Sequence record: OM386656.1
DNA from: Escherichia phage vB_EcoM_ESCO25
DNA: 64,000 bases
Reading direction: 5' to 3' (one strand)
The notes under the pieces are model-generated. The model saw nothing but the letters and a program-made list of their open reading frames with translations, searched no databases and was not told the origin of the DNA. Position numbers and translations under genes: made by a program. Below, one piece after another: positions 6,965 to 21,954 of the stretch; the stretch's first letter is position 1, and every line of letters starts with the position of its first letter.

Positions 6965-6972
6965 TTTCTCTC

Positions 6973-7952: not shown

Positions 7953-8236
7953 CAGTGAATCTCCCCTAAAATGTTGTTTTGAGACATTACTGCGGAGCAT
8001 TCTACAGCATCATGAGTCCTTGCAAAACGCTCCCACAGCACAGCATCTACTTTAAGAACCATACAAGGATAAATACTGTCGTTGATCATATCAATGCTAT
8101 ATTTATCTACATCCTTTTCATCTTCCATAAACAAAGTAGCGTATGCTTCCAAATGTTTACGGGTGTAGTATACGTCCTCTTCGGTAAGACCGACAACCAG
8201 GTAACTTGCTACAACAACAGTATTATCTTCTTGCAT
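7952..8236 (-). CDS. hypothetical protein
   Basis: Track ORF 7952..8299 trimmed to ATG at 8236 (MQEDNTVVV...) with RBS aaggggag. Confidence 0.5.
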   Translation of the reverse strand: MQEDNTVVVASYLVVGLTEEDVYYTRKHLEAYATLFMEDEKDVDKYSIDMINDSIYPCMVLKVDAVLWERFARTHDAVECSAVMSQNNILGEIH

Positions 8237-8237
8237 T

Positions 8238-8759
8238 TTAACTCCCCTTTGGTAGATAGAAACCATGCACTTTATCTCGATAAACAAGACGCATATCACG
8301 CTCCCAGTGTGTCCTTATATTCCGTTTCTTGAAGTATAGAGCACCTTTAGTAACATCTAAAACAGACCGCAATTCAGGAAAATGTTTCTCTAAATAAAGT
8401 AAACGCTCCGCTATTGCTTTTGCTTCCTGCCACTTATCTTTCTCTGTCACGTTAAAAGTTTTCGCATATGAGAATTGCCCTTTCTGGAACAAGACTCCCT
8501 TGACTGTGTTAGGGAAGTAGGCATCATTTCTTCTGTTGATTACCACATTCCCAACGGCATTCATTCCTTTTTTACCCAGACCGCGACCTTCTGCGTAAAT
8601 TGCACAAGCTAATAGAATTTTATCATTATATTGCTTTGTACATTTGTGAACTACTTTAGCGGTTTTTACGTTTGCAGCTTCGGCTTTCGCCACAACAGGT
8701 GTAAATGTAAAAGCAGTTAAGGATAGTAACGCAACTGTTACAAAGTTTTTTATCAGCAA
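8238..8759 (-). CDS. SleB-like cell-wall hydrolase with signal peptide
   Basis: TTG start with GGAGG 6 nt upstream; N-terminal signal peptide LLSLTAFTFTPVVAKA; LACAIYAEGRG...AVGNVVINRR matches the hydrolase_2 (SleB) core. Confidence 0.6.
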   Translation of the reverse strand: MLIKNFVTVALLSLTAFTFTPVVAKAEAANVKTAKVVHKCTKQYNDKILLACAIYAEGRGLGKKGMNAVGNVVINRRNDAYFPNTVKGVLFQKGQFSYAKTFNVTEKDKWQEAKAIAERLLYLEKHFPELRSVLDVTKGALYFKKRNIRTHWERDMRLVYRDKVHGFYLPKGS

Positions 8760-8791
8760 ATTTTGCCTCCTTTTTAAGTTAACGAACTTCT

Positions 8792-8820
8792 AGTATAACA
8801 CGATAGAGGCTTTATTGCAA
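8792..8820 (-). promoter_or_regulatory. sigma70-like promoter (TTGCAA-N17-TATACT) for the SleB-like gene
   Basis: Minus-strand TTGCAA (8820-8815), 17-nt spacer, TATACT (8797-8792). Confidence 0.5.
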
Positions 8821-8841
8821 GAGGGGGACTTCTCCCCCCTC
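8821..8841 (-). terminator. GC-rich stem-loop after terD (possible terminator or processing site)
   Basis: GAGGGGGA-cttc-TCCCCCCTC inverted repeat directly after the terD stop; weak T-tract. Confidence 0.4.
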
Positions 8842-8859
8842 AAAATCATTTGTTAATTA

Positions 8860-9462
8860 TTATGGACATTCATACCATTCTTTTTTACCACCGAAGGCCA
8901 TCACCACATCGCAAATATCCAGACCAGCTTTACCTACACCATATGCTTTCAGCTTCCATTCTCCATCTTCACGAACCAGGGAAGCCACGTGGCAGATTGT
9001 GTTGCCAGCTACTTCAGGAGCCAGGAAGTCAAAATCCAGAATTTCCACATTGCGCTCGGAGTCGAAGATTTTAAGCATACCTTCAGAAGCATGACCAAAA
9101 CGTTTCAGACCTGTATCATCATCAATGGTCAGAACAAAGGCAATCTCTTGTGCATCAGGAGAGATTTTAGCCAGAGTAATATCAATCTGCTCCATGCTGC
9201 CAGTTCCATCACGAACATCGTCACCAGCGAAGGTAGAACGTTCAGGATCAAACTTGTTAGCATAGCAAACCAGATGACGTGCAGACAGCATTTCAGGATT
9301 GCCAGCGGCATTGTGACGACAAACCAGTGCACTTACATCCAGATCCAGTTTAGAATCAGATTTCCAAGAGAATTCCAGACGCAGTTCTTTCAGAGCCGGA
9401 GCAACTTTCTTCAGGGAAATTTTTTCGCTAGAACCTTTTTTCAGGGAAATTTTATCAGTCAT
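8860..9462 (-). CDS. terD: TerD-family stress protein
   Basis: 200 aa; N-terminal KISLKK repeats, then LDLDVSAL, GDDVRDGTG, EIAFVLTIDD and REDGEWKLKAYGVGKAGL matching the TerD/TerE/TerZ fold signature. Confidence 0.8.
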   Translation of the reverse strand: MTDKISLKKGSSEKISLKKVAPALKELRLEFSWKSDSKLDLDVSALVCRHNAAGNPEMLSARHLVCYANKFDPERSTFAGDDVRDGTGSMEQIDITLAKISPDAQEIAFVLTIDDDTGLKRFGHASEGMLKIFDSERNVEILDFDFLAPEVAGNTICHVASLVREDGEWKLKAYGVGKAGLDICDVVMAFGGKKEWYECP

Positions 9463-9477
9463 CTTTTGTCTCCTCTA

Positions 9478-9747
9478 TTATTTAAGTGTAATACCAGTTA
9501 CAGTCAATTCTACTTCCAAAAGCTTAGATGTGTTTTGGATTGATACTAATTGTGCATGATGGTTTAGTTCTACAGCAGAATAATCATTTTCCCCATCATC
9601 TACTTTTAAATAAACAATGATTTCACTAAGGTCTAAACCATTTTCGTCAAATGCATTTTCATAGACGAAAGTATCTCCTACATCCAAATCTTTAATGGTA
9701 AGGCATCGTTTATTTACTTTTTGCTCATCAATTTCGAAGTTTAACAC
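9478..9747 (-). CDS. hypothetical protein, paralog of 10769..11065
   Basis: 89 aa; shares DLDVGDTFVYENAFDENGLD and C-terminal LEVELTVTGITLK with 10769..11065 (DLGIGATFMYYDAYEDAGLD, VEVDLEVTNITLK). Confidence 0.55.
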   Translation of the reverse strand: MLNFEIDEQKVNKRCLTIKDLDVGDTFVYENAFDENGLDLSEIIVYLKVDDGENDYSAVELNHHAQLVSIQNTSKLLEVELTVTGITLK

Positions 9748-9976
9748 TTCTTCCTCCTAATGTTATCTCCGGTTTGTATATACGAAGAATTATAGCATTT
9801 TCATTTTCTTTGTCAACCCATTCTTCATAATCAGGCCATACATGAATCTCTACTCTACTTACAATATCTTCCATTCGCACAGTCCCAATGAAATACTCTT
9901 TGAGACTGCGCATAATGAAAGCTTCTCTCTCGCGCCAATAATTTTCTATGACTTGAGAGGCAAGCTCGTCGATCAT
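9728..9976 (-). CDS. hypothetical protein
   Basis: 82 aa ORF in operon. Confidence 0.5.
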   Translation of the reverse strand: MIDELASQVIENYWREREAFIMRSLKEYFIGTVRMEDIVSRVEIHVWPDYEEWVDKENENAIILRIYKPEITLGGRSVKLRN

Positions 9977-10767
9977 TTTTTAGCACCTACTTTAACAACC
10001 CACTCTCCGAACTCTTCAGATAAGAGTTTGTCATAAAGCTCTGAATCTGTCAAGTCTAAATCTTTAATGCCAATAAAACCAACATTATCATAAGCATTTG
10101 CCAGTTCTTTCAGGAAGCCAAACTTCTCATTACCAACGCCAACCATGAACCAATAAATAGGTTTATTCTTATTCTCTTCAATAAGACGACGAACAGCACT
10201 AGGATCACCATTCTCACCATCCGTCTGGAAGAATACAACACCAGGGGTAACGTCAGCACCTGGTTCAGACACAGCTACAACCTTTTCACGCTCTACAGAT
10301 ACTGTTTCAGTTTTACCAAGCAGACGATTAAAGAAGCCTTTCTTTGGAGCCTCCTCTTGTACCACTTGTTTAGTGGTAATATATTTGGTAACAGTGCCAA
10401 AATACTCATCGTAGATATCTGCCATTACAGGGGCGTAATTTGTTCCACCTCCGATACGAACATTGCGCATACATTTACCAACATAGTCATCGTAAACGTC
10501 TGCTGTTGCTGGAGTAAGCTCTTGGGAACTCGTATTGAAGGCCCACATATCAATTTGTTGATTATCGTCGAACAGCATACCAAAAGGAAGCAGTTTACCT
10601 ACAAAATCACTCACTACCCCACTAGAATATAGACCATGCATACTACCAGAAATATCTAGAGCACATGCTACACGAAGAACAATCTTACCTTCATTCAGGT
10701 TCTTATTCTTTTTCAGAGAGAAAGCAAGGTTTTCTTGACGTTTTTTCAGGCTGATTTTCTCGGACAT
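9973..10767 (-). CDS. von Willebrand factor A (vWA) domain protein, TerY-like, with TerD-like ISLKK N-terminus
   Basis: 264 aa; N-terminal KISLKK...FSLKK, then a MIDAS-type ACALDISGSM (DxSxS), GGGTNYAPVM and VVFFQTDGENG. Confidence 0.7.
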   Translation of the reverse strand: MSEKISLKKRQENLAFSLKKNKNLNEGKIVLRVACALDISGSMHGLYSSGVVSDFVGKLLPFGMLFDDNQQIDMWAFNTSSQELTPATADVYDDYVGKCMRNVRIGGGTNYAPVMADIYDEYFGTVTKYITTKQVVQEEAPKKGFFNRLLGKTETVSVEREKVVAVSEPGADVTPGVVFFQTDGENGDPSAVRRLIEENKNKPIYWFMVGVGNEKFGFLKELANAYDNVGFIGIKDLDLTDSELYDKLLSEEFGEWVVKVGAKK

Positions 10768-10768
10768 A

Positions 10769-11065
10769 TTATTTCTCCTTCTTAAGTGTAATATTGGTAA
10801 CTTCTAAATCTACTTCCACCATATTTGTATCTGGCGGGATGCAATGAGTATAGCCTCGTTGTGCTAGTGATCCATTAATACAGATCGCACTGTTTGTGGA
10901 ATTTTTAATGAACACCAAGTTACGGTAGGTATCCAACCCTGCGTCTTCATAGGCATCATAATACATGAATGTGGCCCCTATGCCAAGATCTTCGAAAGCA
11001 ATAGGTAAATCCTGACACTTTTCTTCTTGAATATTGAATCTAAACACGCATACCTCCTCTACCAA
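10769..11065 (-). CDS. hypothetical protein, paralog of 9478..9747
   Basis: 98 aa; see paralog motifs above. Confidence 0.5.
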   Translation of the reverse strand: MVEEVCVFRFNIQEEKCQDLPIAFEDLGIGATFMYYDAYEDAGLDTYRNLVFIKNSTNSAICINGSLAQRGYTHCIPPDTNMVEVDLEVTNITLKKEK

Positions 11066-11603
11066 TTTTGAAGCCCAAATCGTAAGCTTCTTTAGTGATC
11101 TTTTGCAACTCGCTTATAGGAAGTGTTACAAGAGGATCATCTTCTTCAATTTCCATCTTGTCATCTTCTGTTTCAATGAGAGTATTATGCACTTTATGAT
11201 AAGGGTTGTCAACACGTTTAAACTTATTCTTTTCTGTGCTGAAGAAACAATCTGGATCTTCTTCACCATCACCCCAACCTTGATTAGGATCTCTGTCAGA
11301 TTGTTCTGTAGGGATCTCACCTGTAAAGTACTCTTCCAGCACCATAGCGATGCCGTCCCTTGGATTTGAGGAATGCATCAAATCACAAACCTTACTCCAA
11401 TCCATAGCCCAGTCGAACCGTTCACGAACGCCATTTTCATCCTCTTTTCCAGAGAAAACACAACCATAACTATCATAGTTGCCATACATCTCTTCAATAA
11501 CAACACCGTCCTTCAAAAGAAAGAGGTAGCAAGGTGATCCGTCGAAAGAAGTAGAAAGGGCAGCTTTGCCCGATTCTTTGCACAAAAAGCTAAAACAACC
11601 CAT
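11040..11603 (-). CDS. hypothetical acidic protein
   Basis: 187 aa ORF; Asp/Glu-rich. Confidence 0.5.
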   Translation of the reverse strand: MGCFSFLCKESGKAALSTSFDGSPCYLFLLKDGVVIEEMYGNYDSYGCVFSGKEDENGVRERFDWAMDWSKVCDLMHSSNPRDGIAMVLEEYFTGEIPTEQSDRDPNQGWGDGEEDPDCFFSTEKNKFKRVDNPYHKVHNTLIETEDDKMEIEEDDPLVTLPISELQKITKEAYDLGFKIGRGGMRV

Positions 11604-11806
11604 TACAAACCCTCCTTCAGATTATCAAGAGCTACAGTGGTTTCACAAAATTCTCCATAAGCTTTATGATGTTCCAGAAAAGCTTCGGGTCCACCCCAAT
11701 CATTGTCTTGTGTATTCCAGCCATCAATAAAAGCATCTTCAATGATTGTGATCAGTTCTTGTCGGGTTAACTGGATAATATTAGGGTCGTTATCGTAGTT
11801 AAACAT
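11603..11806 (-). CDS. hypothetical protein
   Basis: 67 aa ORF. Confidence 0.45.
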   Translation of the reverse strand: MFNYDNDPNIIQLTRQELITIIEDAFIDGWNTQDNDWGGPEAFLEHHKAYGEFCETTVALDNLKEGL

Positions 11807-11972
11807 CCTCTTCCTCCTCTAAAATATGGAACCCGTAATTACAATAGTCCTGAAAGGTTTCGTGTGCAAGATCTTCTATATCCTCTTGAGACATATCATC
11901 TTCAATTTCGATATCCACAACCTCATTGCATCCACACCAAGCAGTTTCAATATTCACTCGTAATATTTTCAT
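11799..11972 (-). CDS. hypothetical small protein (57 aa), not on ORF track
   Basis: Manual translation MKILRVNIETAWCGCNEVVDIEIEDDMSQEDIEDLAHETFQDYCNYGFHILEEEDV; start overlaps the upstream stop as TAATG with a GAGGAGG RBS; fills an otherwise unexplained gap. Confidence 0.4.
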   Translation of the reverse strand: MKILRVNIETAWCGCNEVVDIEIEDDMSQEDIEDLAHETFQDYCNYGFHILEEEEDV

Positions 11973-12169
11973 TACTCCTCCTCCTCATTGAAGTCAATAT
12001 CTGCAAGGAGTTCGAATTTACGGAAGTTACGACAACCTTCATAAATATAACAATCACGACAAACTGCTAGAACACTTGGGGGATATATGCCTCCCATCGG
12101 CGCGAATCGTTTTTCGTCATCATAACGGACACCAATGTCCTCATCAATTATATAGATACGGATTCTCAT
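11972..12169 (-). CDS. hypothetical protein (Cys-containing)
   Basis: 65 aa ORF. Confidence 0.45.
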   Translation of the reverse strand: MRIRIYIIDEDIGVRYDDEKRFAPMGGIYPPSVLAVCRDCYIYEGCRNFRKFELLADIDFNEEEE

Positions 12170-13278
12170 TTACCAAGCCCTCGTTTCACAGCAGCTACCA
12201 TCCCGTCTTCCAAAGATTGAACTTCATTAATATAATCAACACGAGCAGCACGGGCTTCCGTATTGATGCGGTTAGTTTCTTCCAACATCTTAACCAAGTT
12301 TTCCTGATCGTGACGCAGAGTTTCAATATCCAACACTTGACGGTTAGCCAGTGCTGCTGCTTCGATCTGATTCTGTGTGGCAAGATCGCTACCCAGTTTA
12401 ATTGCCAGGTTAAATTCATCAAGAACGTTATTCTGCGTCTCTGCTGCTTTCATTTGACGTAAGCTCTCGATATACATTGAGAAGTTAGCAGAGTAAGCAG
12501 GAATAACATTATTTACTATGTTACGCGCAGATCGCATTAAGCTTGCAGAAACTTTTTGCATACCTTGTACACGCGGTCCCATTTGGACACACAGTAGGCG
12601 CAATGCTTTTAAATCTGCAATACGAATCTCCAGAAGATCCAAAGTATCTCGGATCACTTGTCGCTGTTCTACTGCATCTTCTGGAAGAGCAGCCAAAGCT
12701 TGTTCTTCTTTTTCATAGGTTGCTGTTAGAAGCTGCATATCTCGGTTCAAACTTGCAGCATATTGTCCAATAGCTTGATGTAGCTTTTCAAGATATACCA
12801 AGGAATCTTCTTCTTTGCGAATATCCATTTGAAGGTTTTTTACCAACTCTTCAATACGGTTATTAACATTATCAAACTCCCCAAACAGATCTTCTTTCAT
12901 ACCCATAACTTTTTTAATGAGTTTAGTAATACCCTTGCTTTGTTTAATAGAGTTTGGATCAAGTTGTTTTGCCTGTTTAATCAAAGCTGTGAGTCGTTCA
13001 CTCATCTGATCGCCTTGATTACTACGTTGATGTTTTAATACCTCGGCATTCAAGGAACGCAAGGTTGTTCCTGCCTCTGCCCCAATCTCTTCGATCTCCT
13101 GTCGGGTCATAGAAGGCAAAACTGGAACTTCTTGCGGTGCCGCTGGTGCATAAACAGGACTGGCATCTAACACGCTTGGAGCGAATACAGATTTACTTGC
13201 ATCTGTTGTTGCAGCAAATACGCTCATTTCAGGTTTCTTCTGACAGCCAGTAGCTGCTTTTAAAAATGGACTTGTCAT
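12166..13278 (-). CDS. TelA-like toxic-anion-resistance family protein
   Basis: 370 aa, predicted all-helical; N-terminal EIEEIGAEAGTTLRSLNAEVLKHQRSNQGDQMSERLTALIKQAKQLDP parallels the conserved TelA/KlaA N-terminal block. Confidence 0.6.
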   Translation of the reverse strand: MTSPFLKAATGCQKKPEMSVFAATTDASKSVFAPSVLDASPVYAPAAPQEVPVLPSMTRQEIEEIGAEAGTTLRSLNAEVLKHQRSNQGDQMSERLTALIKQAKQLDPNSIKQSKGITKLIKKVMGMKEDLFGEFDNVNNRIEELVKNLQMDIRKEEDSLVYLEKLHQAIGQYAASLNRDMQLLTATYEKEEQALAALPEDAVEQRQVIRDTLDLLEIRIADLKALRLLCVQMGPRVQGMQKVSASLMRSARNIVNNVIPAYSANFSMYIESLRQMKAAETQNNVLDEFNLAIKLGSDLATQNQIEAAALANRQVLDIETLRHDQENLVKMLEETNRINTEARAARVDYINEVQSLEDGMVAAVKRGLGK

Positions 13279-13865
13279 TCTTCATTCTCCTCTTCTGCAT
13301 CTCTTATATATGGTGAAACACCGTACTCTTTAGCTACTTTAACCCAATCGTCCCATTTATACAACCATAATTTTCCTTCGGTCCCTTCTTTATCTGATTT
13401 CAACCACATATTAGGTTGCTTACCTGGGTACATGCGATTAGGTTTACGATTATAACCTCTAACACATCTTGTCGCAAACCTATCTACCAGAACAAGAACA
13501 TATTTATATTCGTGGTTCAACGGCTCTTTGGAAGTGGCTTTAGGATTAGCCCCTAACTCTGCTGCCAGTTTTTGCCAATGAGCACCGTGTCTACTAAACT
13601 TACCCATACAACCATCAATAGCATGAGCAATTTCGTGCTTCATTGTATCCACGATCATATCTCTTGTAGAGTTCTTATGCAAGTGCCAATTTACAACAAC
13701 AATTTTATCTCGGTAGTTGCACCAACCGAAAGAGTTATTCACTTTGTTTCTAACACAAGCTTTATATCCTGCTTCACGTAACATGTTGTAGTAAACAGGA
13801 AAATCTTCTTTTATTTCCTGCATCACTTCCCACCACAAGAGTTGCAAGTCTCTCTCGGTATACAT
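13275..13865 (-). CDS. SprT-like zinc metallopeptidase domain protein
   Basis: 196 aa; HExxH motif MKHEIAHAIDGCMGKFSRHGAHW with an SprT-like N-terminal region. Confidence 0.55.
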   Translation of the reverse strand: MYTERDLQLLWWEVMQEIKEDFPVYYNMLREAGYKACVRNKVNNSFGWCNYRDKIVVVNWHLHKNSTRDMIVDTMKHEIAHAIDGCMGKFSRHGAHWQKLAAELGANPKATSKEPLNHEYKYVLVLVDRFATRCVRGYNRKPNRMYPGKQPNMWLKSDKEGTEGKLWLYKWDDWVKVAKEYGVSPYIRDAEEENEE

Positions 13866-13868
13866 AAC

Positions 13869-14462
13869 TTACACCTTAAAAGTGAAATGCGTGGTCGTGG
13901 TTTCAAAATCAGGACCAGATAAACGTGCACTGAAATCTGAAATATTTGTAATTAAAAAGCTTTTATGCATACCTAACACAGCTACGCTTTCAATATCTTC
14001 TACTAACATTTCAATCATGTTAGAAACATGGCTGAACGTAGAGTTTTGTTTTTTGATGGTGTAGAAAGAAAGATTCCCACCTGCTGTATAAGATACCTCT
14101 TCAAAATCTTTAATGGTATATTGTGTGCCATCAGTAAAGAAAATGGTAGCTTTATTAGTAGCACGTTTCTTGTTTTTTGGTCCTTTTTTACGTTTACTGC
14201 GAGTAGGCAAACCGTTTGGGAACACCATAGCTACAAATTCTTCAGCAGAAACCTCCTTACCGAAATCATAACCATAAGAAACAGCGTCTATAAACTCGTC
14301 ATCTTCATTTTTAAAATAATGGAAATAGGGCCAATTTGAAAGATTATCAAGCATCTTATGCTCGTCCACAGCAGAGAATGTATCCCTCAAAGCGCGTGTG
14401 ATTTGCAAAGCATTAGGCAACCTTTTAACACCTACGATGGAAGTACGAATAGAAATTGTCAT
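13869..14462 (-). CDS. hypothetical protein
   Basis: 197 aa ORF. Confidence 0.5.
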   Translation of the reverse strand: MTISIRTSIVGVKRLPNALQITRALRDTFSAVDEHKMLDNLSNWPYFHYFKNEDDEFIDAVSYGYDFGKEVSAEEFVAMVFPNGLPTRSKRKKGPKNKKRATNKATIFFTDGTQYTIKDFEEVSYTAGGNLSFYTIKKQNSTFSHVSNMIEMLVEDIESVAVLGMHKSFLITNISDFSARLSGPDFETTTTHFTFKV

Positions 14463-14476
14463 TGTTTTTCTCCTTA

Positions 14477-14914
14477 TTAACGTCGCTTGCTACGAGATGA
14501 ACTCTTTTTACTTAAAGGGCTATTGTAAGATTTACGAGTTGTATAGCTACTATTTGTTTTAAAAGTTTGTCTCGGCTTTTCATAAGTTTTTATCTCTTGT
14601 TTAGGCTTACTATAAAAATTAGTTTTCGGTTTAGGTGTATTATAATGCTTATTAATAATCGTTCTGTTATCGTTATAATCCCCACTGCTACGATTACTAC
14701 CGCCACTCATCATATGCCCTAACAACATACCTGTAGCAAACTCACCAACACCGCTACTACTAGAACCGCCACCATTGTTGATAATAGTTGTATCTCCGTC
14801 AGATCCTTGTTGAGCGTATTGTTGAGGAGGTTGTTGGTATTGTGCAGGATTTGTCTCATCCTCGCAAGCTGTTAAAAAGATACAACCAATTAAAATCAGG
14901 GCTAGTTTTTTCAT
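14477..14914 (-). CDS. lipoprotein, low-complexity Q/G/S-rich
   Basis: Start trimmed to MKKLALILIGCIFLTAC (lipobox LTAC); the remainder is Gln/Gly/Ser/Lys-rich. Confidence 0.6.
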   Translation of the reverse strand: MKKLALILIGCIFLTACEDETNPAQYQQPPQQYAQQGSDGDTTIINNGGGSSSSGVGEFATGMLLGHMMSGGSNRSSGDYNDNRTIINKHYNTPKPKTNFYSKPKQEIKTYEKPRQTFKTNSSYTTRKSYNSPLSKKSSSRSKRR

Positions 14915-15101
14915 ATTTGCTTTCCTCGTTTTGGCTATTAATACATCTGTGTTTGAAATCTCCAGAGAAGCAATAAAGTTGCTCTCCATCTCGGTATAAA
15001 CTCACTTTACTGCCGTTGATTACGCTTGTCAATACAAAAATTACAACAAACAACCCTATTGCAAAACAAATATTTTCAAACACAACCAACAAGTATTTCA
15101 T
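14856..15101 (-). CDS. possible small membrane protein
   Basis: 81 aa ORF with hydrophobic N-terminus LLVVFENICFAIGLFVVIFVLTSVI; overlaps the lipoprotein start, so uncertain. Confidence 0.35.
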   Translation of the reverse strand: MKYLLVVFENICFAIGLFVVIFVLTSVINGSKVSLYRDGEQLYCFSGDFKHRCINSQNEESKYEKTSPDFNWLYLFNSLRG

Positions 15102-15448
15102 TTTAAAAATACCTCATCATCAGTTTCATTATCCCAGAAGAACAAGTCCCAACCATTCGGATCATTCCATTTAGCTGCTGGAGAAGTCCATATTTGCTCG
15201 ATATCAATATTCAAAACTTCACCGTTTCGTTTTGAAACAGCTTTAGTTAATTCCCAACGGGATACAGGCTCCACTTCCCCTGAACCACTCCCACAACAAG
15301 CTACCACATTAGGAGGCAAATTAATTGGATCTTTGGTCACGATCATAACGCTTACCCCAGGGTAAACTTTTGAAAGATAATCTAAAACGTAATCCACATC
15401 ACCAGATAAATCCCAAACAAGTTCTTGAATTTCATCAAAATTACTCAT
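15098..15448 (-). CDS. hypothetical protein
   Basis: 116 aa ORF; RBS aggagag. Confidence 0.5.
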   Translation of the reverse strand: MSNFDEIQELVWDLSGDVDYVLDYLSKVYPGVSVMIVTKDPINLPPNVVACCGSGSGEVEPVSRWELTKAVSKRNGEVLNIDIEQIWTSPAAKWNDPNGWDLFFWDNETDDEVFLK

Positions 15449-15454
15449 AAGTCT

Positions 15455-15484
15455 CTCCTATAAAATAGCCTCCCGAAGGAGGCT
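15455..15484 (-). terminator. intrinsic terminator after terC
   Basis: AGCCTCC-cgaa-GGAGGCT hairpin (15467-15484), followed on the minus strand by TATTTTATA. Confidence 0.55.
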
Positions 15485-15490
15485 CATTTA

Positions 15491-16465
15491 TTAAACAGTA
15501 GCTTCTTCTTTTTCAGGGAAGATAAAGCTTGCAATAACACCAAGAGATAATGTGCCTAGAACAATCATCAGACTTACGTTAGGGGAAATATCATGCGGGA
15601 GGAATGACCACTTGGCATGAAGTGTTTCACCGAACGGGTGATACATAAGTTTAGCACCAACAAACACCAGAACCACAGCAACAGCTTTCTCTAAGTGAAC
15701 CAGATATTTCACAGCTACACTTAACACAAAGAAAAGTGCACGTAAACCAAGAACAGCCATCAGCATTGCAGAATAAACTAGCAGAGGTTCTTGTGTCACA
15801 CCGATCACAGCCGGAACTGAATCAAAAGAGAAGACAATATCTGTAAGCTCAATAACAAACACACAAAGAAGAGCAGGAGTTGCATATTTAATACCATTCT
15901 TAATGGTGATGAACTTTTCACCATCCAGTGCATTGTGCACAGGCAGAACTTTACCTACTAAACGAACAGCCCAATGTTTAGAGTAATCAATATCCTCTTC
16001 TTTGTCACCACCTTTGATGATAGCCACGGCAGACCAAGCTACAATCAAACCGAACAACACTTGGACCGACCAATGAAGGTTAAACAAAGCGGTCCCTGCT
16101 GCAACAAAAATACCTCGGAAGACAATGGCTCCTGCAATCCCCCAAAGTAGAATCTTATGTTGGAGATGTGTGCTCTTAATTCCAAAGCTTGCAAAAATTG
16201 CCATGAACACCATTAGGTTATCTACAGAAAGACTCTTTTCCAACACATAGCCACTTAGGAAAAGCGCGGCAAACTCTTTACCATGTTCTACCCAAATGAA
16301 TGCGTAATACCCTAAAGCTAAAGCAATCCAAAAAACAGACCAAAGCAAAGCAGATTTAATTCCAATTTCTTTATTCTCTTTATGACCAAAGAAATCGATA
16401 CCAATAGACAATGCTAAAATACCAACTAAAACAACTACATCAATAATTGGGAAACCGAGTTGCAT
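15491..16465 (-). CDS. terC: TerC-family integral membrane protein
   Basis: 324 aa, multiple transmembrane helices; LSGYVLEKSLSVDNLMVFMAIF and downstream helices match the TerC/Alx signature (LSxDNxxVF). Confidence 0.8.
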   Translation of the reverse strand: MQLGFPIIDVVVLVGILALSIGIDFFGHKENKEIGIKSALLWSVFWIALALGYYAFIWVEHGKEFAALFLSGYVLEKSLSVDNLMVFMAIFASFGIKSTHLQHKILLWGIAGAIVFRGIFVAAGTALFNLHWSVQVLFGLIVAWSAVAIIKGGDKEEDIDYSKHWAVRLVGKVLPVHNALDGEKFITIKNGIKYATPALLCVFVIELTDIVFSFDSVPAVIGVTQEPLLVYSAMLMAVLGLRALFFVLSVAVKYLVHLEKAVAVVLVFVGAKLMYHPFGETLHAKWSFLPHDISPNVSLMIVLGTLSLGVIASFIFPEKEEATV

Positions 16466-16482
16466 TCTTTTCTCCTCTCTTT

Positions 16483-16541
16483 GCGGGGAACTATTCCCCG
16501 CTTCATGTGATATATCTTACTCTTTTTAAGAACTATGTCAA
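16483..16541 (-). promoter_or_regulatory. PeSL-like cassette (promoter plus 5' stem-loop) upstream of terC
   Basis: Minus strand: TTGACA (16541-16536), N16, TAAGAT (16519-16514), atatcacatgaa, hairpin GCGGGGAATAGTTCCCCGC (16501-16483), RBS gagaggag; same architecture as the plus-strand array at 38.3-48.2 kb. Confidence 0.6.
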
Positions 16542-16544
16542 CAC

Positions 16545-16766
16545 TTATTTTGTTGAATGAGAGGAAAAGATTCCTCGTAATACCGCCAAAATAAACGAAA
16601 CACAAACCACGGTCCAGAAGGTTACTGGGACAGTGATATCTGCATGACCCATAACTTCAGCAACATAGTTGTAAGCCAGCAACAGTAACCAAGCTGGAAT
16701 CAAACTAAGCATAAAAGCAATAACAAAAAAGCTTACCACTGCAACAATACCTGCAAAAACACCCAT
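16545..16766 (-). CDS. small membrane protein
   Basis: 73 aa, two or three hydrophobic helices. Confidence 0.5.
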   Translation of the reverse strand: MGVFAGIVAVVSFFVIAFMLSLIPAWLLLLAYNYVAEVMGHADITVPVTFWTVVCVSFILAVLRGIFSSHSTK

Positions 16767-16778
16767 ACTAATCTCCTC

Positions 16779-17252
16779 TTAAAGTTTATAAATAGTCACA
16801 TCGTGACCTGTTTTTACTAAAGTTTCTTCAATCATCACTTGGATGATAGCCCAATTACCTCCGGCATGTCCCGCTCCAATCATAGGTAAACCGATCTTAC
16901 ATTTTTGGTCACGGAGAAGCAAATCATTAGCCATAGCTATTAGTGCATCGTAAAGTGCATCATAGTCCAACTGACGACCTTTAGCATTGTATCCGTAACG
17001 GTATTGCCCGTATAGATTATATACCAAAGGGTCTGATTGTTCGTCTGGCACCCCTAAACTAAAAGAACCTAACTTACTTTGATCACCAGCCATTGTGTCT
17101 AAATCTGCCGCATATGCATAAGGGAATGCTCGTTTAATTTGCGGAGCAATTCCTGCTCCCATATTACACATACAATTGCAACAATGAGCAATAACAGTTA
17201 CTTCACCTGCTTTAGCGGCATCAATAAGATTACCTGTTTTCATTTTAAGCAT
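16779..17252 (-). CDS. macro domain protein (ADP-ribose binding or hydrolysing)
   Basis: Start set at MLKMK with AAGGAG RBS; VIAHCCNCMCNMGAGIAPQIKRAFP and GLPMIGAGHAGG resemble the macro-domain Gly-rich loops. Confidence 0.65.
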   Translation of the reverse strand: MLKMKTGNLIDAAKAGEVTVIAHCCNCMCNMGAGIAPQIKRAFPYAYAADLDTMAGDQSKLGSFSLGVPDEQSDPLVYNLYGQYRYGYNAKGRQLDYDALYDALIAMANDLLLRDQKCKIGLPMIGAGHAGGNWAIIQVMIEETLVKTGHDVTIYKL

Positions 17253-17265
17253 TTTTAGCTCCTTA

Positions 17266-18093
17266 TTACAGAATGTGTTGTTTTGTGTAACGATCCAAGA
17301 ATTCAAAGTTTTCAGCATACTTTGAAATTCGGTTGTAACCTTCTCCCAAACATCCGAAGAAAAGTTGCTCTACATAGTAGTGTGGCAATTGGCTAAGAAT
17401 GATTTTGAAGTCTTCGTGATTTTGGCCCATAAGATACTTAATAGGACGAACAAGACACTGTGCATCACGTTCTTCATTAATCATTTTAACAAACGCTTCT
17501 GGTGTATTGATGTAGTTAAAATTCAGTTTAGCTTCAGTATCTGCTTGATTACCTTCATATTTTGCAAAATACAAGAAGTAAACATCATTTTTAACTTGAT
17601 TTTCATCAAGAATCTCAATCAGTTTGTCTTCATGAGTTCCGGTGATATTTACATCATCAATGAACACAAGCTTCTTATCACCCCAGAATTCTTTGTTGCA
17701 GTAGAATGTATCCCCATCAATAAGTTTCTTACGACTAGCTTTATCCAAGAAACCATAATCGTTGATATAGCTAACTTTACGATGAATAATATCCAGTTCT
17801 GCTGAACGACCTTGATCATATTGTGCTTGCAACATATTAAAGTAATTAATAAAATGATCTGTCATCATTGTTGCAGCATTGTGCACATGGTTATAAGGAG
17901 AAGGGATGATAACAAATTGTTCCCCAATATGTTTCATTGCCACTTGAGCAAAAAACTGAAGTACCAATTCTTTACCCATACGACGCGCAGCTTGGTTACT
18001 ACCAAATTTCAATTTTGAATAGTCTTTGATATCAAAAGTAGCAGTTTCCAGGTCATCAAATTTATTTGCAAAAATTTGAGTTTGATTACGCAT
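17266..18093 (-). CDS. phosphoribosyltransferase-like protein (type I PRTase motif)
   Basis: 275 aa; KKLVFIDDVNITGTHEDKL resembles the PRPP-binding motif (hydrophobic-DD-x-ITTG-T). Confidence 0.45.
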   Translation of the reverse strand: MRNQTQIFANKFDDLETATFDIKDYSKLKFGSNQAARRMGKELVLQFFAQVAMKHIGEQFVIIPSPYNHVHNAATMMTDHFINYFNMLQAQYDQGRSAELDIIHRKVSYINDYGFLDKASRKKLIDGDTFYCNKEFWGDKKLVFIDDVNITGTHEDKLIEILDENQVKNDVYFLYFAKYEGNQADTEAKLNFNYINTPEAFVKMINEERDAQCLVRPIKYLMGQNHEDFKIILSQLPHYYVEQLFFGCLGEGYNRISKYAENFEFLDRYTKQHIL

Positions 18094-18742
18094 TTACAAT
18101 TTCTCCTCTTTTAAGTTTCTCTAGTAAGTCGTTAGGGTTCTTAATATGACAGAAGTTAATCCCTATGTCAACACATTTACCATCAAATTCTTCGCTGTCC
18201 CCAACATGTAAAATCTCTTCAGCCTTCAAAGGAATGCTTGAATATGTGGCGGTCCTAACAAAGAATCTAGGATCTGGTTTACATAACAGATGTTCGTCTG
18301 AAAAATGCATAAATTCAAAACAATTCCAACTGTCGAACATACAAGCACGACGCAAAATATCCCCAGATATAAAATTAGTATTGCTTTTAATACTAAGATC
18401 ATATTTACCAGACAAGTATAGCAAACAAACTGGCAAATCTAAAGCGATATGTGGAGGAAATTTAAGAAACCATTGCTCACACTCAAAACGCATTTGTGCA
18501 GATTCTACAGGGGTTAAACCTATCTTTCTTCCCAACATATTCCATGCATATGCTACACCTTCTGCACACCCATTTAGTGCAGCATTATCCATAATTTCTT
18601 TGGCATCTTTATATGCTTCTTTTGCCGCACGTTCAGACATTCTACCATATGTAGCAATAGTGTGCGTACGTGCATCTGCATAGTTTTGATTGGCAGAAAT
18701 AAGAGTATTCCATACATCAAAAGAAATATGTTTTATTGTCAT
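18086..18742 (-). CDS. HAD-superfamily hydrolase-like protein
   Basis: Start set at MTIKHISFDVWNTL; HAD motif I-like FDVWNTL (second Asp absent, as in dehalogenase-like members), motif III KPDP, motif IV HVGDSEEFD. Confidence 0.5.
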   Translation of the reverse strand: MTIKHISFDVWNTLISANQNYADARTHTIATYGRMSERAAKEAYKDAKEIMDNAALNGCAEGVAYAWNMLGRKIGLTPVESAQMRFECEQWFLKFPPHIALDLPVCLLYLSGKYDLSIKSNTNFISGDILRRACMFDSWNCFEFMHFSDEHLLCKPDPRFFVRTATYSSIPLKAEEILHVGDSEEFDGKCVDIGINFCHIKNPNDLLEKLKRGEIVNA

Positions 18743-18743
18743 A

Positions 18744-19349
18744 CTAGGCCCACCACGCATCAAGATTTAAGTTACTGTCTACCACAACTTGTTCTATGTG
18801 GTAGCCTTTTATCTGTATCCCACTGTTCAAGAGCATATCATATGCTTCATTGAAACGCAACTTATCTTCTGCGGAATATAAGCGAGCATTGTAAAATCGG
18901 TAATCAAGTTCTTCAGCATTAGAAGAAATACGGAAGAAGTTTGTTTCTACTTCAGGATCACTTGCTGAAGTTTTAATGTGAACTTCTCCGTAATTTTCTT
19001 TGCTTAGATCCATGAAAAGAACACAGGCAACATGTTTAAACATTCGTTCCAGTTTGTAACGAACAACATTGAAACCTGCGTTCTCAAGTTTTTCTACACA
19101 TTGCAACATTAACGTAGTGTCGAGATCGCTTTGATACTTTGTTAACATACGATCACGTTGAGACTTTGTATCCCGATGTAAATCAATTGTTGTGCATTTG
19201 GCACCAATGATCTTAGCTGCTTTCATCAACTCTTCAGAACTAACGTTAGATAAAGTAAGATGAAAATGGGCTTTCCACACTTTTTTAGCAGGGACACCAA
19301 AAGATTTATCCCCACTATTCGGCATGTTGACTACTACACTATGTTGCAT
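18744..19349 (-). CDS. hypothetical protein
   Basis: 201 aa ORF. Confidence 0.5.
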   Translation of the reverse strand: MQHSVVVNMPNSGDKSFGVPAKKVWKAHFHLTLSNVSSEELMKAAKIIGAKCTTIDLHRDTKSQRDRMLTKYQSDLDTTLMLQCVEKLENAGFNVVRYKLERMFKHVACVLFMDLSKENYGEVHIKTSASDPEVETNFFRISSNAEELDYRFYNARLYSAEDKLRFNEAYDMLLNSGIQIKGYHIEQVVVDSNLNLDAWWA

Positions 19350-19364
19350 TACTTATCTCCTCAC

Positions 19365-19556
19365 TTAAAATGGAAGTCTTTGAAGTTCATCTCCTCCGAT
19401 ATCAAGTAATTTAGCAACATCTCGATCAGAAAGCAACTCTTTTCTTTGTAAAATATCCACAAGGGTTGCAAGAATGTCCTTAACGTCCCGATCATTGTTC
19501 TTCAAAAGTTCTCCTGCCGTCCCTACCCTATCTCCTACAGCAAAATATGTAACCAT
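19365..19556 (-). CDS. hypothetical small protein
   Basis: Start trimmed to ATG with GGAGG 5 nt upstream (MVTYFAVGD...). Confidence 0.4.
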   Translation of the reverse strand: MVTYFAVGDRVGTAGELLKNNDRDVKDILATLVDILQRKELLSDRDVAKLLDIGGDELQRLPF

Positions 19557-19569
19557 AAAACCTCCTACG

Positions 19570-20040
19570 CTAATCTGATTGCCAACCACTCGCCGTTTTG
19601 GTCCATAATCTTTGATTATCTGACCCTCTGAAAGGTTTTGTGGTTGGATTGTTTATTTCATACTTTCCGTCTACAATAATGTCAACAAGATTTTTAATAT
19701 ACAAAGGCACTTCCTCAAAAGTATATCCTGTATACACCATTATATCTTTGCTTGACCCATAAACGTCTCTAACCTTTTCTATAAGGTTTTTAACATTGTA
19801 AATATTCTGCGGATCTAATGGTTCTCCTCCTAAAATTGTTAAACCTTTTACAAACGGTCTTGACAAATCTTTTAAAACTTGCTCTACATTTTCGTTAGTG
19901 AACGGTTTCCCATAAGAATAAGACCAGGCTTTCTGGTTAAAACAGCCACGACAACCGTGGCTACAACCACTAACCCAGAGGGAGCACCTAACTCCCTCAC
20001 CATTAATAAGATCTACAGGTTCATATCCTGCAAAATTCAA
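19570..20040 (-). CDS. nrdG: anaerobic ribonucleotide reductase activating protein (radical SAM)
   Basis: 156 aa; CSLWVSGCSHGCRGCFN cysteine cluster; overlaps nrdD by 4 nt. Confidence 0.85.
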   Translation of the reverse strand: MNFAGYEPVDLINGEGVRCSLWVSGCSHGCRGCFNQKAWSYSYGKPFTNENVEQVLKDLSRPFVKGLTILGGEPLDPQNIYNVKNLIEKVRDVYGSSKDIMVYTGYTFEEVPLYIKNLVDIIVDGKYEINNPTTKPFRGSDNQRLWTKTASGWQSD

Positions 20041-21851: not shown

Positions 21852-21921
21852 TATTAATCCTTATTTTGTGAGTAGAACTATTATTCTACCTCTTTCAACC
21901 GAAAAAAGCTTTGAGGGAAAT

Positions 21922-21947
21922 CAAAAAAGGCGCAAAGTGCGCCTTTA
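21922..21947 (-). terminator. intrinsic terminator after gene 21955..23370
   Basis: GGCGCA-aag-TGCGCC hairpin; on the minus strand followed by TTTTTTGATTT. Confidence 0.6.
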
Positions 21948-21954
21948 AGTTTTA

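What the first reader, a model, noticed from the sequence alone, without database searches (positions are those of the whole stretch)
8860..19349. Phage-borne Ter-like stress module (TerD, vWA, TelA-like, TerC) with linked macro-domain, PRTase-like and HAD-like enzymes
Within about 10 kb of one operon set the phage encodes a TerD-family protein (8860-9462), a vWA protein with a TerD-like ISLKK N-terminus (9973-10767), a TelA-like helical protein (12166-13278), an SprT-like metallopeptidase (13275-13865), a lipoprotein, TerC (15491-16465), a macro domain (16779-17252), a phosphoribosyltransferase-like protein (17266-18093) and a HAD-like hydrolase (18086-18742), immediately upstream of nrdDG. 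As I recall, comparative genomics of bacterial ter loci (Anantharaman, Iyer and Aravind 2012) linked TerD/TerY/TelA/TerC with PRTase and HAD enzymes proposed to make a nucleoside-like metabolite. Finding the whole association in a virulent-looking phage suggests the phage brings its own stress/metabolite module, possibly for host takeover, membrane stress during lysis or counter-defence. This is not a standard annotated phage function.
Basis: partly seen in the sequence, partly recalled or inferred. Interest (0 to 1): 0.8.

Follow-up and report, generated by a model that had tools for sequence, protein, structure and literature searches.

The report
Phage-borne Ter stress module with nucleoside cassette
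A lytic E. coli phage of the phAPEC8 group carries its own copy of the bacterial "tellurite-resistance" (Ter) envelope-stress genes plus a two-enzyme cassette predicted to make a nucleoside-like molecule; the gene calls are correct and the linkage recurs in unrelated phages, but this kind of phage Ter system has been described before and its function is still untested.

Summary
All the genes lie on the minus strand. Profile searches confirm TerD, a TerF-type vWA protein, TelA, an SprT-like protease, an Alx-type TerC, a TARG1/DarG-like macro domain, a PRTase_3 (ComF-like) phosphoribosyltransferase and a HAD-IA hydrolase.

The window is a Phapecoctavirus, 99.9% identical to phage AV125. Sixty-one phage records carry at least 80% of the block.

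Comparison with the sister genus Justusliebigvirus and with divergent metagenomic phage contigs defines the conserved core: HAD, PRTase_3, (macro), TerC, TelA, vWA and TerD. The SprT-like gene and the 201-aa protein are not part of it.

The overlapping HAD-PRTase_3 pair is the tightest unit. It sits inside Ter clusters in three phage lineages. It also occurs away from Ter genes in other phages and on rhizobial plasmids.

New details found here:
- The HAD has an invariant Trp where phosphatases have the Asp+2 acid/base.
- TerD has lost the GDDE acidic cluster.
- TerC has its own promoter-like site and terminator-like hairpin, and no riboswitch.

Novelty is low. Iyer et al. 2021 described phage Ter systems with PRTase and HAD, and the ZCKP1 paper noted the Ter genes in this phage group. 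The most likely role is envelope and ion-homeostasis remodelling that excludes competing phages. That is inferred, not shown.

The parts
18086..18742 (-). HAD-IA family hydrolase, the first gene of the HAD-PRTase_3 pair; its end overlaps the PRTase start by 8 nt. Motif I reads D9-V-W11-N-T13, with Trp at the Asp+2 position.
   Evidence: Pfam Hydrolase E=1.4e-3, below cut-off. NCBIfam DREG-2/CTE7/HAD-II hits. PDB 2om6 has the identical FDVWNTL motif. Invariant D9, W11, T13, S117, N121, K155, G181-D182 and D187 across 9 PRTase_3-linked HADs.
17266..18093 (-). PRTase_3 (ComF-like type I phosphoribosyltransferase) with an intact PRPP loop, LVFIDDVNITGTH.
   Evidence: PF15610 E=2.7e-41. Invariant D146, D147, V148, I150, T151, G152 and H154 in 9 homologues. 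156 phage records carry it; 241 homologues found, and PF15610 is recorded for all 120 listed.
16779..17252 (-). Macro domain protein of the TARG1/DarG/SCO6735 type, 13 nt downstream of the PRTase.
   Evidence: Pfam Macro 22.8 bits. DarG models E=4.5e-9 and 1.6e-10. PDB 5e3b E=1e-12, 5m31 and 4j5r. PHROG 335. Follows the PRTase in the same order in phage muut.
16545..16766 (-). 73-aa hydrophobic (membrane) protein, conserved in Justusliebigvirus (60% identity).
15491..16465 (-). TerC family membrane protein of the Alx subfamily.
   Evidence: PF03741 E=3e-40. TIGR03718, 318 bits against a cut-off of 246. 72% identical in muut. 174 phage records.
16514..16541 (-). Sigma70-like promoter (TTGACA-16-TAAGAT) upstream of TerC, followed by a short 5'-UTR hairpin (GCGGGGAATAGTTCCCCGC). 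No yybP-ykoY riboswitch.
15467..15484 (-). Intrinsic-terminator-like hairpin (AGCCTCCTTCGGGAGGCT followed by a T-rich tail), 7 nt after the TerC stop codon.
14477..14914 (-). Predicted lipoprotein (lipobox LTAC) with low-complexity G/S- and K/S-rich stretches. Conserved weakly in Justusliebigvirus. The adjacent 81-aa membrane protein (14856-15101) is also conserved.
13275..13865 (-). SprT-like zinc metallopeptidase (HEIAH); its end overlaps the TelA start by 4 nt. Absent from Justusliebigvirus, so it is not part of the conserved core.
   Evidence: PF10263 E=4e-9; no hit in muut.
12166..13278 (-). TelA-like helical protein.
   Evidence: PF05816 E=3e-33. 78.5% identical in muut. 29% identical to the TelA of contig L007. 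224 phage records.
10769..11065 (-). 98-aa protein (phrog_11278) immediately upstream of vWA. It is a paralogue of the 89-aa protein upstream of TerD, and an 11/12 sigma70-like promoter (11212-11184) precedes it.
9973..10767 (-). TerF-type vWA protein with a MIDAS motif (D-I-S-G-S ... T ... D) and an N-terminal KISLKK motif shared with TerD.
   Evidence: PF10138 E=1.6e-37. Sequence read directly. 32-38% identical to vWA proteins in L005-L007. 219 phage records.
9478..9747 (-). 89-aa protein (phrog_11278), paralogue of the 98-aa protein. A perfect 12/12 extended sigma70 consensus promoter (9816-9789) precedes it.
8860..9462 (-). TerD-domain protein. It keeps the DLD motif, but GDDVR-DGTGSME replaces the canonical GDNxTGEGDGDDE acidic loop.
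   Evidence: PF02342 E=3e-28. PDB 2kxt E=1.5e-15. Alignment A5. 81% identical in muut.

Best explanation
The block is a phage-encoded Ter system. It combines the Ter "functional hub" with a two-gene HAD-PRTase_3 cassette.

The hub has four parts:
- an Alx-type TerC membrane transporter;
- one TerD-domain protein;
- a TerF-type vWA protein with an intact MIDAS site;
- TelA.

The cassette is predicted to work in two steps. The PRTase would couple a base-like nucleophile to PRPP, and the HAD enzyme would then process the 5'-phosphoribosyl product. The result would be a nucleoside-like small molecule. In this phage subfamily a macro domain follows the cassette directly.

The genes lie in the early/middle accessory region. 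They sit behind nrdDG and host-type sigma70-like promoters. They would therefore be made in the infected cell, not packaged in the virion.

The most likely role is to remodel the envelope and the Mn/Zn/Ca balance of the infected cell. This would give the phenotypes bacterial ter loci confer: inhibition of other phages, colicin resistance and tolerance of envelope stress. In the phage's setting that means superinfection exclusion and protection of the infected cell until lysis. The small molecule would act as the signal or cofactor that connects to the hub.

Shown here: gene identities, intact catalytic and ligand motifs, gene order and recurrent linkage.
Inferred: expression timing, the metabolite, the membrane effect and the exclusion phenotype.

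The confidence of 0.5 applies to the functional reading. That the block is a phage Ter system with a linked HAD-PRTase_3 pair is about 0.9 certain.
For: Family assignments.

Intact motifs:
- PRPP loop in the PRTase.
- HAD motifs I-IV.
- MIDAS site in vWA and HExxH in SprT.

Linkage:
- The same order (nrdDG, HAD, PRTase, Macro, TerC, TelA, vWA, TerD) holds in Justusliebigvirus at 47-81% protein identity.
- TerC-TerD-vWA-HAD-PRTase_3 clusters occur in L005 and L006.
- TelA-vWA-TerC-HAD-PRTase_3-TerD clusters occur in L007 and L015, with the pair embedded between TerC and TerD.
- Examples from the other phage groups with PRTase_3 carry a TerF-type vWA or TelA elsewhere in the genome: Rhizobium phage RHph_TM40, CcrColossus, Caulobacter and Brevundimonas phages.

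Transcription signals:
- Terminator-like hairpins lie before nrdD and directly after TerC. Only weak terminator-like sites (3 G-C pairs) lie between them.
- Sigma70-like promoters sit before TerC, before p98-vWA and before p89-TerD.

Composition: GC of the block (37-40%) matches the rest of the window, so it is not a recent host capture.

Bacterial precedent:
- Deleting terC lowers phage resistance and Zn/Mn resistance (PMC12054061).
- TerC is needed for tolerance to polymyxin B and cetylpyridinium chloride (PMC9933665).
- The R478 ter cluster gives phage inhibition and colicin resistance (cited).

The same interpretation was proposed for jumbo phages (PMC7824862).
Against: - No experiment exists on any phage Ter gene. 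The phiPsa374 authors state that the function is unknown (PMC9796965).
- TerB and the extra TerD paralogues of functional terZABCDEF operons are absent.
- The TerD acidic loop GDDE is lost. From memory of the Klebsiella TerD structure paper, this loop is a Ca2+ site, so this TerD may not bind Ca2+ as Klebsiella TerD does.
- The HAD lacks the Asp+2 general acid/base (invariant Trp), so "phosphatase" is not secure.
- The HAD-PRTase_3 pair is not adjacent to Ter genes in XaC1, Rhizobium phages, CcrColossus or rhizobial plasmids.
- Ter hubs exist without PRTase_3: no Pseudomonas phage is among the PRTase_3 matches, although many carry TelA and vWA.
- Enterobacterial IncHI2 ter plasmids have no PRTase_3 homologue at E<=1e-3.
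- The promoter and terminator calls are consensus matches only (48 promoter-like sites against 41 expected).
Confidence: 0.5

Rival explanations
1. There are two or more unrelated accessory modules that merely share the phage's accessory-gene region. The Ter hub acts at the membrane. HAD-PRTase_3-macro acts on nucleotide, NAD or ADP-ribose chemistry, for example base salvage, a counter-defence metabolite, or reversal of ADP-ribosylation by DarT-like toxins.
For: - The pair occurs without adjacent Ter genes in XaC1, Rhizobium phage and CcrColossus and on rhizobial plasmids.
- Its neighbours there are nucleotide, NAD or RNA-repair genes: an NMN adenylyltransferase/NUDIX gene and PurA in the Rhizobium phage; PnuC and AAA_28 in L006; RNA ligase, 2H-SAK, a CCA-adding enzyme and NUDIX in L014.
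- In the window the pair appears to be co-transcribed with nrdDG and is separated from TelA, vWA and TerD by a terminator-like hairpin.
- The macro domain's best named matches include DarG.
Against: - In L007 and L015 the pair lies between TerC and TerD. In L005 and L006 it directly follows vWA.
- In three lineages whose PRTases are only 47-59% identical to one another, the pair is embedded in Ter clusters.
- At genome level, carriers of PRTase_3 generally also carry Ter genes.
- Macro scores are far below DarG family cut-offs (36 bits against 250).
Confidence: 0.3
2. The module is a metal-supply or detoxification device. Alx-type TerC, helped by TerD and vWA, adjusts Mn2+/Zn2+/Ca2+ in the infected cell to serve phage metalloenzymes or to metalate exported proteins. 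It has no role in phage-phage competition.
For: - TerC belongs to the TerC/Alx metal-homeostasis subfamily.
- terC confers Zn/Mn resistance in Klebsiella.
- The vWA MIDAS site is intact.
- The block sits next to ribonucleotide reductase genes here and in L006.
- TerC occurs alone in Aeromonas, Vibrio and Cronobacter phages.
Against: - NrdDG does not use Mn (established knowledge).
- The TerD acidic loop is degenerate.
- This reading does not explain TelA or the HAD-PRTase pair.
- There is no Mn riboswitch.
Confidence: 0.12
3. The genes are host-benefit morons that give the bacterium tellurite or xenobiotic resistance, as the database names suggest.
For: Database labels read "tellurite resistance". 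The jumbo-phage paper mentions possible xenobiotic resistance during pseudolysogeny.
Against: - The phage belongs to a lytic myovirus subfamily and the window shows no lysogeny genes.
- TerB and the TerZ/A/E paralogues are absent.
- The phiPsa374 authors judge tellurium resistance unlikely for such incomplete sets.
Confidence: 0.03

Closest known systems
Phage-encoded Ter systems described by Iyer, Anantharaman, Krishnan, Burroughs and Aravind 2021 (PMC7824862): the complete system with PRTases and HAD in Acinetobacter phage vB_AbaM_ME3, and abbreviated TerD/TerC/TerF/TelA operons in Caulobacter jumbo phages
   Same: The component set is the same: TerD, TerC, TerF-type vWA, TelA, PRTase and HAD. 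The setting is the same: a large virulent tailed phage. The paper explicitly extends the observation to "certain other related smaller tailed phages".
   Different: This is a 150-kb non-jumbo coliphage (Stephanstirmvirinae). A macro domain follows the PRTase. TerD has a degenerate acidic loop. I did not compare directly with ME3, so orthology of the PRTase to ME3's was not tested.
Bacterial Ter functional hub with its nucleoside-biosynthesis module (Anantharaman, Iyer and Aravind 2012, as cited in PMC7824862, PMC8386662 and PMC12054061)
   Same: TerD, TerC, TelA and vWA are linked to a PRTase and a HAD enzyme. The PRTase belongs to PF15610. From memory, that family was defined in that study.
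   Different: No TerB, TerY-kinase-phosphatase triad, ATP-grasp or C-C lyase was found. There is a single TerD. The 2012 paper itself could not be read here.
terZABCDEF operon of IncHI2 plasmid R478, E. coli O157 and Klebsiella
   Same: It contains TerC and TerD-domain proteins, and TerF combines TerD with vWA. Its documented phenotypes (phage inhibition, colicin resistance, envelope-stress tolerance) are the model for the function proposed here.
   Different: The phage has one TerD and no TerB. Its TerC is Alx-type. Its vWA keeps only a short N-terminal KISLKK motif and has no full TerD domain. No PRTase_3 homologue is found on those plasmids.
Ter genes in Pseudomonas phage phiPsa374 (terC, terD, terF, telA) and Klebsiella phage phiKp34
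   Same: The same four-gene hub occurs in virulent phages, and the function is stated to be unknown.
   Different: No Pseudomonas phage is among the PRTase_3 tblastn matches, so the phiPsa374 group appears to lack the HAD-PRTase_3 pair; phiKp34 was not checked.
CobT/CobC-type two-step nucleoside formation (a PRTase followed by a phosphatase makes alpha-ribazole); analogy from established biochemistry
   Same: The logic is the same: a phosphoribosyltransferase followed by an enzyme acting on the 5'-phosphate yields an unusual nucleoside.
   Different: There is no sequence relationship. The substrate here is unknown, and the HAD lacks the Asp+2 residue of canonical phosphatases.

Membership tests
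Ter system functional hub | TerD-domain protein | tested here: met
   PF02342 E=3e-28; PDB 2kxt E=1.5e-15
Ter system functional hub | TerC family membrane protein | tested here: met
   PF03741 E=3e-40; TIGR03718 at 318 bits, above the cut-off
Ter system functional hub | TelA | tested here: met
   PF05816 E=3e-33, covering 59-361 of 370 aa
Ter system functional hub | TerF/TerY-type vWA protein | tested here: met
   PF10138 E=1.6e-37; the DxSxS MIDAS motif was read in the sequence
Ter system functional hub | TerB | tested here: not met
   No TerB hit among the 20 proteins of the block scanned against Pfam
Ter-associated nucleoside biosynthesis module | PRTase plus HAD enzyme in the same gene neighbourhood as Ter genes | tested here: met
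   PF15610 E=2.7e-41 with an overlapping HAD gene. The linkage recurs in L005, L006, L007, L015 and L012
Ter-associated nucleoside biosynthesis module | Additional enzymes of the bacterial module (ATP-grasp, HpcH/CitE-like lyase; list recalled from memory) | tested here: not met
   No such Pfam hits in the block
Ter system (phenotype) | Confers phage inhibition, colicin resistance or tellurite resistance | not testable with these tools
   Needs wet-lab assays
Type I phosphoribosyltransferase | PRPP-binding loop: hydrophobic run, two acidic residues, then xxTG(T/S) | tested here: met
   LVFIDDVNITGTH; D146, D147, T151 and G152 are invariant in 9 homologues
HAD phosphatase | Motif I nucleophile Asp, motif II Ser/Thr, motif III Lys, motif IV acidic pair | tested here: met
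   D9, S117, K155 and D182/D187 are invariant
HAD phosphatase | Asp+2 general acid/base (DxDxT) | tested here: not met
   Motif I is D-V-W-N-T, and the Trp is invariant in all 9 PRTase_3-linked HADs. The same FDVWNTL motif is present in PDB 2om6
Macro domain, TARG1/DarG-like class | Macro fold and sequence similarity to TARG1, DarG and SCO6735 | tested here: met
   PDB 5e3b E=1e-12, 5m31 E=9e-7, 4j5r E=3.5e-6; DarG models
DarG antitoxin | Full-length DarG (macro plus C-terminal DarT-binding domain) scoring above the family cut-off | tested here: not met
   36 bits against a cut-off of 250, and only the macro part is matched
Alx/TerC riboswitch-controlled transporters | yybP-ykoY Mn riboswitch in the leader | tested here: not met
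   No Rfam hit at E<=1 in 8000-22500. The leader is about 50 nt and holds one small hairpin

The most novel reading that the evidence does not exclude
The HAD-PRTase_3 pair is a self-contained cassette that makes a so far unidentified nucleoside-like molecule in infected cells. Its HAD partner is not a plain phosphatase, because Trp at the Asp+2 position is invariant. The phage would use this molecule to switch on its own TerC/TerD/vWA/TelA envelope machinery. The purpose would be to shut out competing phages or to blunt membrane-targeting abortive-infection effectors. In that case a K-12-infecting coliphage would offer a compact, genetically tractable system for solving what Ter systems sense and do.
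Probability: 0.2. Interest if true: 0.7.

Novelty: new member of a known kind. Interest (0 to 1): 0.35.

Why it matters
What ter loci do has been unclear since the 1990s, even though they are widespread in pathogens. The predicted nucleoside-like metabolite has never been identified.

This phage subfamily carries a minimal version: one TerD, one vWA, TelA, TerC and a two-gene biosynthetic pair. Its members infect E. coli K-12 MG1655. That makes it a practical system for gene deletions, metabolomics and exclusion assays.

For phage biology and therapy, these phages are being developed as therapeutics. A built-in superinfection-exclusion or envelope-stress module would affect cocktail design. 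The database label "tellurite resistance" should not be read as a transferable resistance risk.

The concept itself is already published, so the value here is confirmation and refinement.

Tried and rejected
- **A Mn riboswitch before TerC.** None found.
- **A PRTase_3 homologue in IncHI2 ter plasmids.** None found.
- **Reading Anantharaman et al. 2012.** Not held in the library.
- **Literature on PF15610/PRTase_3, or on TerD in Phapecoctavirus.** None in the held library.
- **The afdb50 fold library.** Unavailable.
- **Similarity of the promoter regions upstream of the two phrog_11278 paralogues.** They do not align.
- **Unknown 311-430-aa proteins inside the metagenomic Ter clusters.** No Pfam hits.

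Full report

Yes. Between 8.2 and 21.9 kb all substantial ORFs lie on the minus strand. Pfam confirms most of the assignments:
- TerD, 8860-9462, E=3e-28
- vWA-TerF-like, 9973-10767, E=1.6e-37
- TelA, 12166-13278, E=3e-33
- SprT-like, 13275-13865, E=4e-9
- TerC, 15491-16465, E=3e-40
- PRTase_3 "ComF-like", 17266-18093, E=2.7e-41

Two assignments are weak in Pfam but hold on other evidence.
- The macro domain (16779-17252) scores 22.8 bits against a cut-off of 22. It matches solved macrodomains: SCO6735 (5e3b) at E=1e-12, Thermus DarG (5m31), and human TARG1/OARD1. It also matches DarG models and PHROG 335.
- The HAD (18086-18742) is below Pfam's cut-off. It matches several NCBIfam HAD-IA models and PDB 2om6. 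It carries conserved HAD motifs.

NCBIfam places the TerC in the Alx subfamily (TIGR03718, 318 bits, cut-off 246). The KISLKK motif shared by the N-termini of TerD and the vWA protein is visible directly in the sequence.

One correction is needed. The genes are on the minus strand, so the block is transcribed after nrdD-nrdG, not before it.

**2. What genome is this?**

The block is 99.9% identical to Escherichia phage AV125 and 99.5% identical to ESCO13 and phAPEC8_ev052. Sixty-one phage records carry at least 80% of it. The window is therefore a Phapecoctavirus (Stephanstirmvirinae), a lytic myovirus of about 150 kb.

The GC content of the block (37-40%) matches the rest of the window. This argues against a recent capture from E. 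coli.

**3. Which genes belong together?**

I compared the block with the sister genus Justusliebigvirus (phage muut). The order there is: nrdD, nrdG, HAD (47% identity), PRTase (64%), Macro (49%), a 73-aa membrane protein, TerC (72%), an 81-aa membrane protein, the lipoprotein, a p197-like protein, TelA (78.5%), p67, p187 (75%), p98, vWA (67%), TerD (81%), endolysin.

Missing from muut are the SprT-like gene, the 201-aa ORF 18744-19349, p116, p82, p57, p65 and the second phrog_11278 paralogue.

I then looked at contigs encoding PRTase_3 homologues that are only 47-48% identical to the window's.
- L005 and L006 carry TerC, an unknown protein, TerD, another unknown, vWA, HAD and PRTase_3, in that order.
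- L007 and L015 carry TelA, vWA..., TerC, HAD, PRTase_3 and TerD, with the enzyme pair embedded between TerC and TerD.
- tblastn confirms that these are homologues of the window's own proteins.

All of these contigs look like phages. They encode YopX, GP88, ribonucleotide reductases, HNH endonucleases, RNA ligase and Acb3.

The linkage of TerC, TerD, vWA, (TelA), HAD and PRTase_3 therefore recurs in at least three phage lineages. Each family is rare among phages:

| Family | Phage records of 50,697 |
|---|---|
| PRTase_3 | 156 |
| TerC | 174 |
| vWA | 219 |
| TelA | 224 |

Chance co-location is not credible.

**4. The HAD-PRTase_3 pair is the tightest unit, and it is separable.**

In every context the HAD gene directly precedes the PRTase gene and often overlaps it. 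In some genomes no Ter gene lies within 12 kb of the pair:
- Xanthomonas phage XaC1 and its metagenomic relative L014;
- Rhizobium phage RHph_TM2_3B;
- Caulobacter phage CcrColossus.

The pair also stands without adjacent Ter genes on Sinorhizobium and Rhizobium plasmids (within the 10 kb flanks examined).

Other genomes hold both sets apart. CcrColossus has a TerF-type vWA about 26 kb from the pair. Rhizobium phage RHph_TM40, of the same phage group, has one near 92 kb. Other Caulobacter and Brevundimonas phages have TelA or vWA. The reverse also occurs: the Pseudomonas phiPsa-like phages have the hub, but no Pseudomonas phage is among the PRTase_3 matches.

The neighbours of the stand-alone pairs are nucleotide, NAD or RNA-repair genes. 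This keeps a "separate module" reading alive.

Enterobacterial ter plasmids have no PRTase_3 homologue at E<=1e-3.

**5. Do the proteins look functional?**

- **PRTase.** It keeps the PRPP loop (DDVxITGxH invariant).
- **HAD.** It keeps the nucleophile Asp9, motif II Ser, Lys155 and the GD...D motif. The Asp+2 position is an invariant Trp (D-V-W-N-T) in all nine PRTase_3-linked HADs. The same motif is in PDB 2om6. From established knowledge of the HAD superfamily, Asp+2 is the general acid/base of phosphatases and mutases. It is replaced in dehalogenases, phosphonatase and P-type ATPases. Calling this enzyme a simple nucleotidase is therefore not secure.
- **vWA.** It has a DxSxS MIDAS motif.
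- **SprT.** It has HEIAH.
- **TerD.** It keeps the DLD motif. However, GDDVR-DGTGSME replaces the canonical GDNxTGEGDGDDE loop, which the other phage TerDs retain. From memory of the Klebsiella TerD structure paper, that loop forms the Ca2+ sites. Calcium binding may therefore be altered.

**6. Transcription signals (consensus scans only).**

- Terminator-like hairpins lie before nrdD (21946-21926) and immediately after TerC (15484-15467). Only weak terminator-like sites (3 G-C pairs) lie between them.
- Sigma70-like promoters lie before TerC (16541-16514), inside p187 before p98-vWA (11212-11184, 11/12), and before p89-TerD (9816-9789, a perfect 12/12 extended consensus).
- p89 and p98 are paralogues (30% identity, E=1e-12; phrog_11278). 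Each precedes a Ter gene.
- No riboswitch precedes TerC.

This suggests expression by host RNA polymerase together with nucleotide-metabolism genes. It is not proof. The scan found 48 promoter-like sites against 41 expected in shuffles.

**7. Mechanism.**

The best-supported reading is the one proposed for bacterial Ter systems and extended to jumbo phages by Iyer et al. 2021 (PMC7824862). In that model:
- a PRTase/HAD pair makes a nucleoside or nucleotide derivative;
- TerD-type proteins bind a ligand;
- TerC alters membrane transport;
- TelA and the vWA protein form sub-membrane assemblies.

Bacterial data support envelope and anti-phage phenotypes:
- Deleting terC lowers phage, Zn and Mn resistance (PMC12054061).
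- TerC is required for tolerance of polymyxin B and cetylpyridinium chloride (PMC9933665).
- The R478 ter cluster gives phage inhibition and colicin resistance (cited).

In a lytic phage this would amount to superinfection exclusion and protection of the infected cell. Everything beyond gene identity, motif integrity and linkage is inference.

The rival readings are independent modules (0.3), metal supply (0.12) and host tellurite resistance (0.03).

**8. Novelty.**

- GenBank records of close relatives already label TelA, TerC, TerD, vWA, PRTase, HAD and macro.
- The ZCKP1 paper noted four tellurite-resistance genes in this phage group and suggested superinfection exclusion.
- phiPsa374 and phiKp34 carry the same hub.
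- Iyer et al. described complete phage Ter systems with PRTase and HAD, and mentioned smaller tailed phages.
- I found no paper in the held library that links the PRTase/HAD pair to the Ter genes specifically in Stephanstirmvirinae.

This is a further member of a known kind. The refinements added here are:
- the core and non-core genes are now distinguished;
- the enzyme pair is separable from the Ter genes;
- the HAD has an invariant Trp at Asp+2;
- the TerD loop is degenerate;
- TerC is Alx-type and has no riboswitch;
- a pair of small paralogues precedes vWA and TerD.

**9. Dead ends.**

The 201-aa and 187-aa proteins both gave confident AF2 models without informative matches to solved structures. 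Neither is linked to Ter genes elsewhere. They are recorded as side observations.

Noticed in passing
[not shown]
   Followed up: partly
window 18744-19349 (-): The 201-aa protein has invariant H28-x-H30-x-T32 and H124-x-K126, and matches PADLOC 'AbiEi' models at 5e-13. Its AF2 model (pLDDT 82) matches only uncharacterised proteins of large phages and giant viruses (Klosneuvirus, Bodo saltans virus, vB_AbaM_ME3). In contig L011 its homologue sits next to an Acb1 anti-CBASS gene. It could be an anti-defence enzyme, but this is unresolved.
   Followed up: partly
window 9478-9747 and 10769-11065 (-): Two paralogous small proteins (phrog_11278, 30% identity) each sit immediately upstream of a Ter gene (TerD and vWA). 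A strong sigma70-like promoter precedes each, and the one at 9816-9789 is a perfect 12/12 extended consensus. Justusliebigvirus has only one copy.
   Followed up: partly
window 16779-17252 (-): The macro domain's closest named relatives are DarG, TARG1 and SCO6735. A phage-encoded free DarG-like macrodomain could reverse DarT DNA ADP-ribosylation (an anti-DarTG function). Not tested.
   Followed up: no
window 5548-7536 (-) and further upstream: In relatives, a run of four glycosyltransferase-annotated genes lies between the endolysin region and the primase/helicase (seen in SF1-1 and muut). The ZCKP1 paper suggested surface-polysaccharide modification to block superinfection.
   Followed up: no
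window 8238-8759 (-): An SleB-type (Hydrolase_2, E=2e-17) cell-wall hydrolase with an N-terminal hydrophobic signal-like segment is annotated as the endolysin in relatives. It lies directly downstream of TerD.
   Followed up: no
L005 4603-5772 and 7094-8029; L006 5392-6600 and 7311-8486; L007 5746-7011 and 11445-12398; L015 3989-6561 and 11530-12468: Unannotated proteins of 311-430 aa recur at fixed positions inside the metagenomic phage Ter clusters (after TerC or vWA, and after TerD). They have no Pfam hit and may be further, undescribed Ter partners.
   Followed up: partly
L014 10967-12562; L002 12941-14527: In the XaC1-like jumbo phages the HAD-PRTase_3 pair is followed by a ~530-aa protein. 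In L014 this protein carries DUF2828/DUF7788; the XaC1 counterpart was not scanned. In L014 the pair sits among RNA-repair genes (RNA ligase, 2H-SAK, CCA-adding enzyme, PTH2). This hints at an alternative, RNA-related context for the pair.
   Followed up: no
window 21955-23370 (-): The 471-aa ORF upstream of nrdD is labelled 'ribonucleotide reductase' in relatives (phrog_15930). It has a low-complexity, basic C-terminal part and was not checked here. The label may be unreliable.
   Followed up: no
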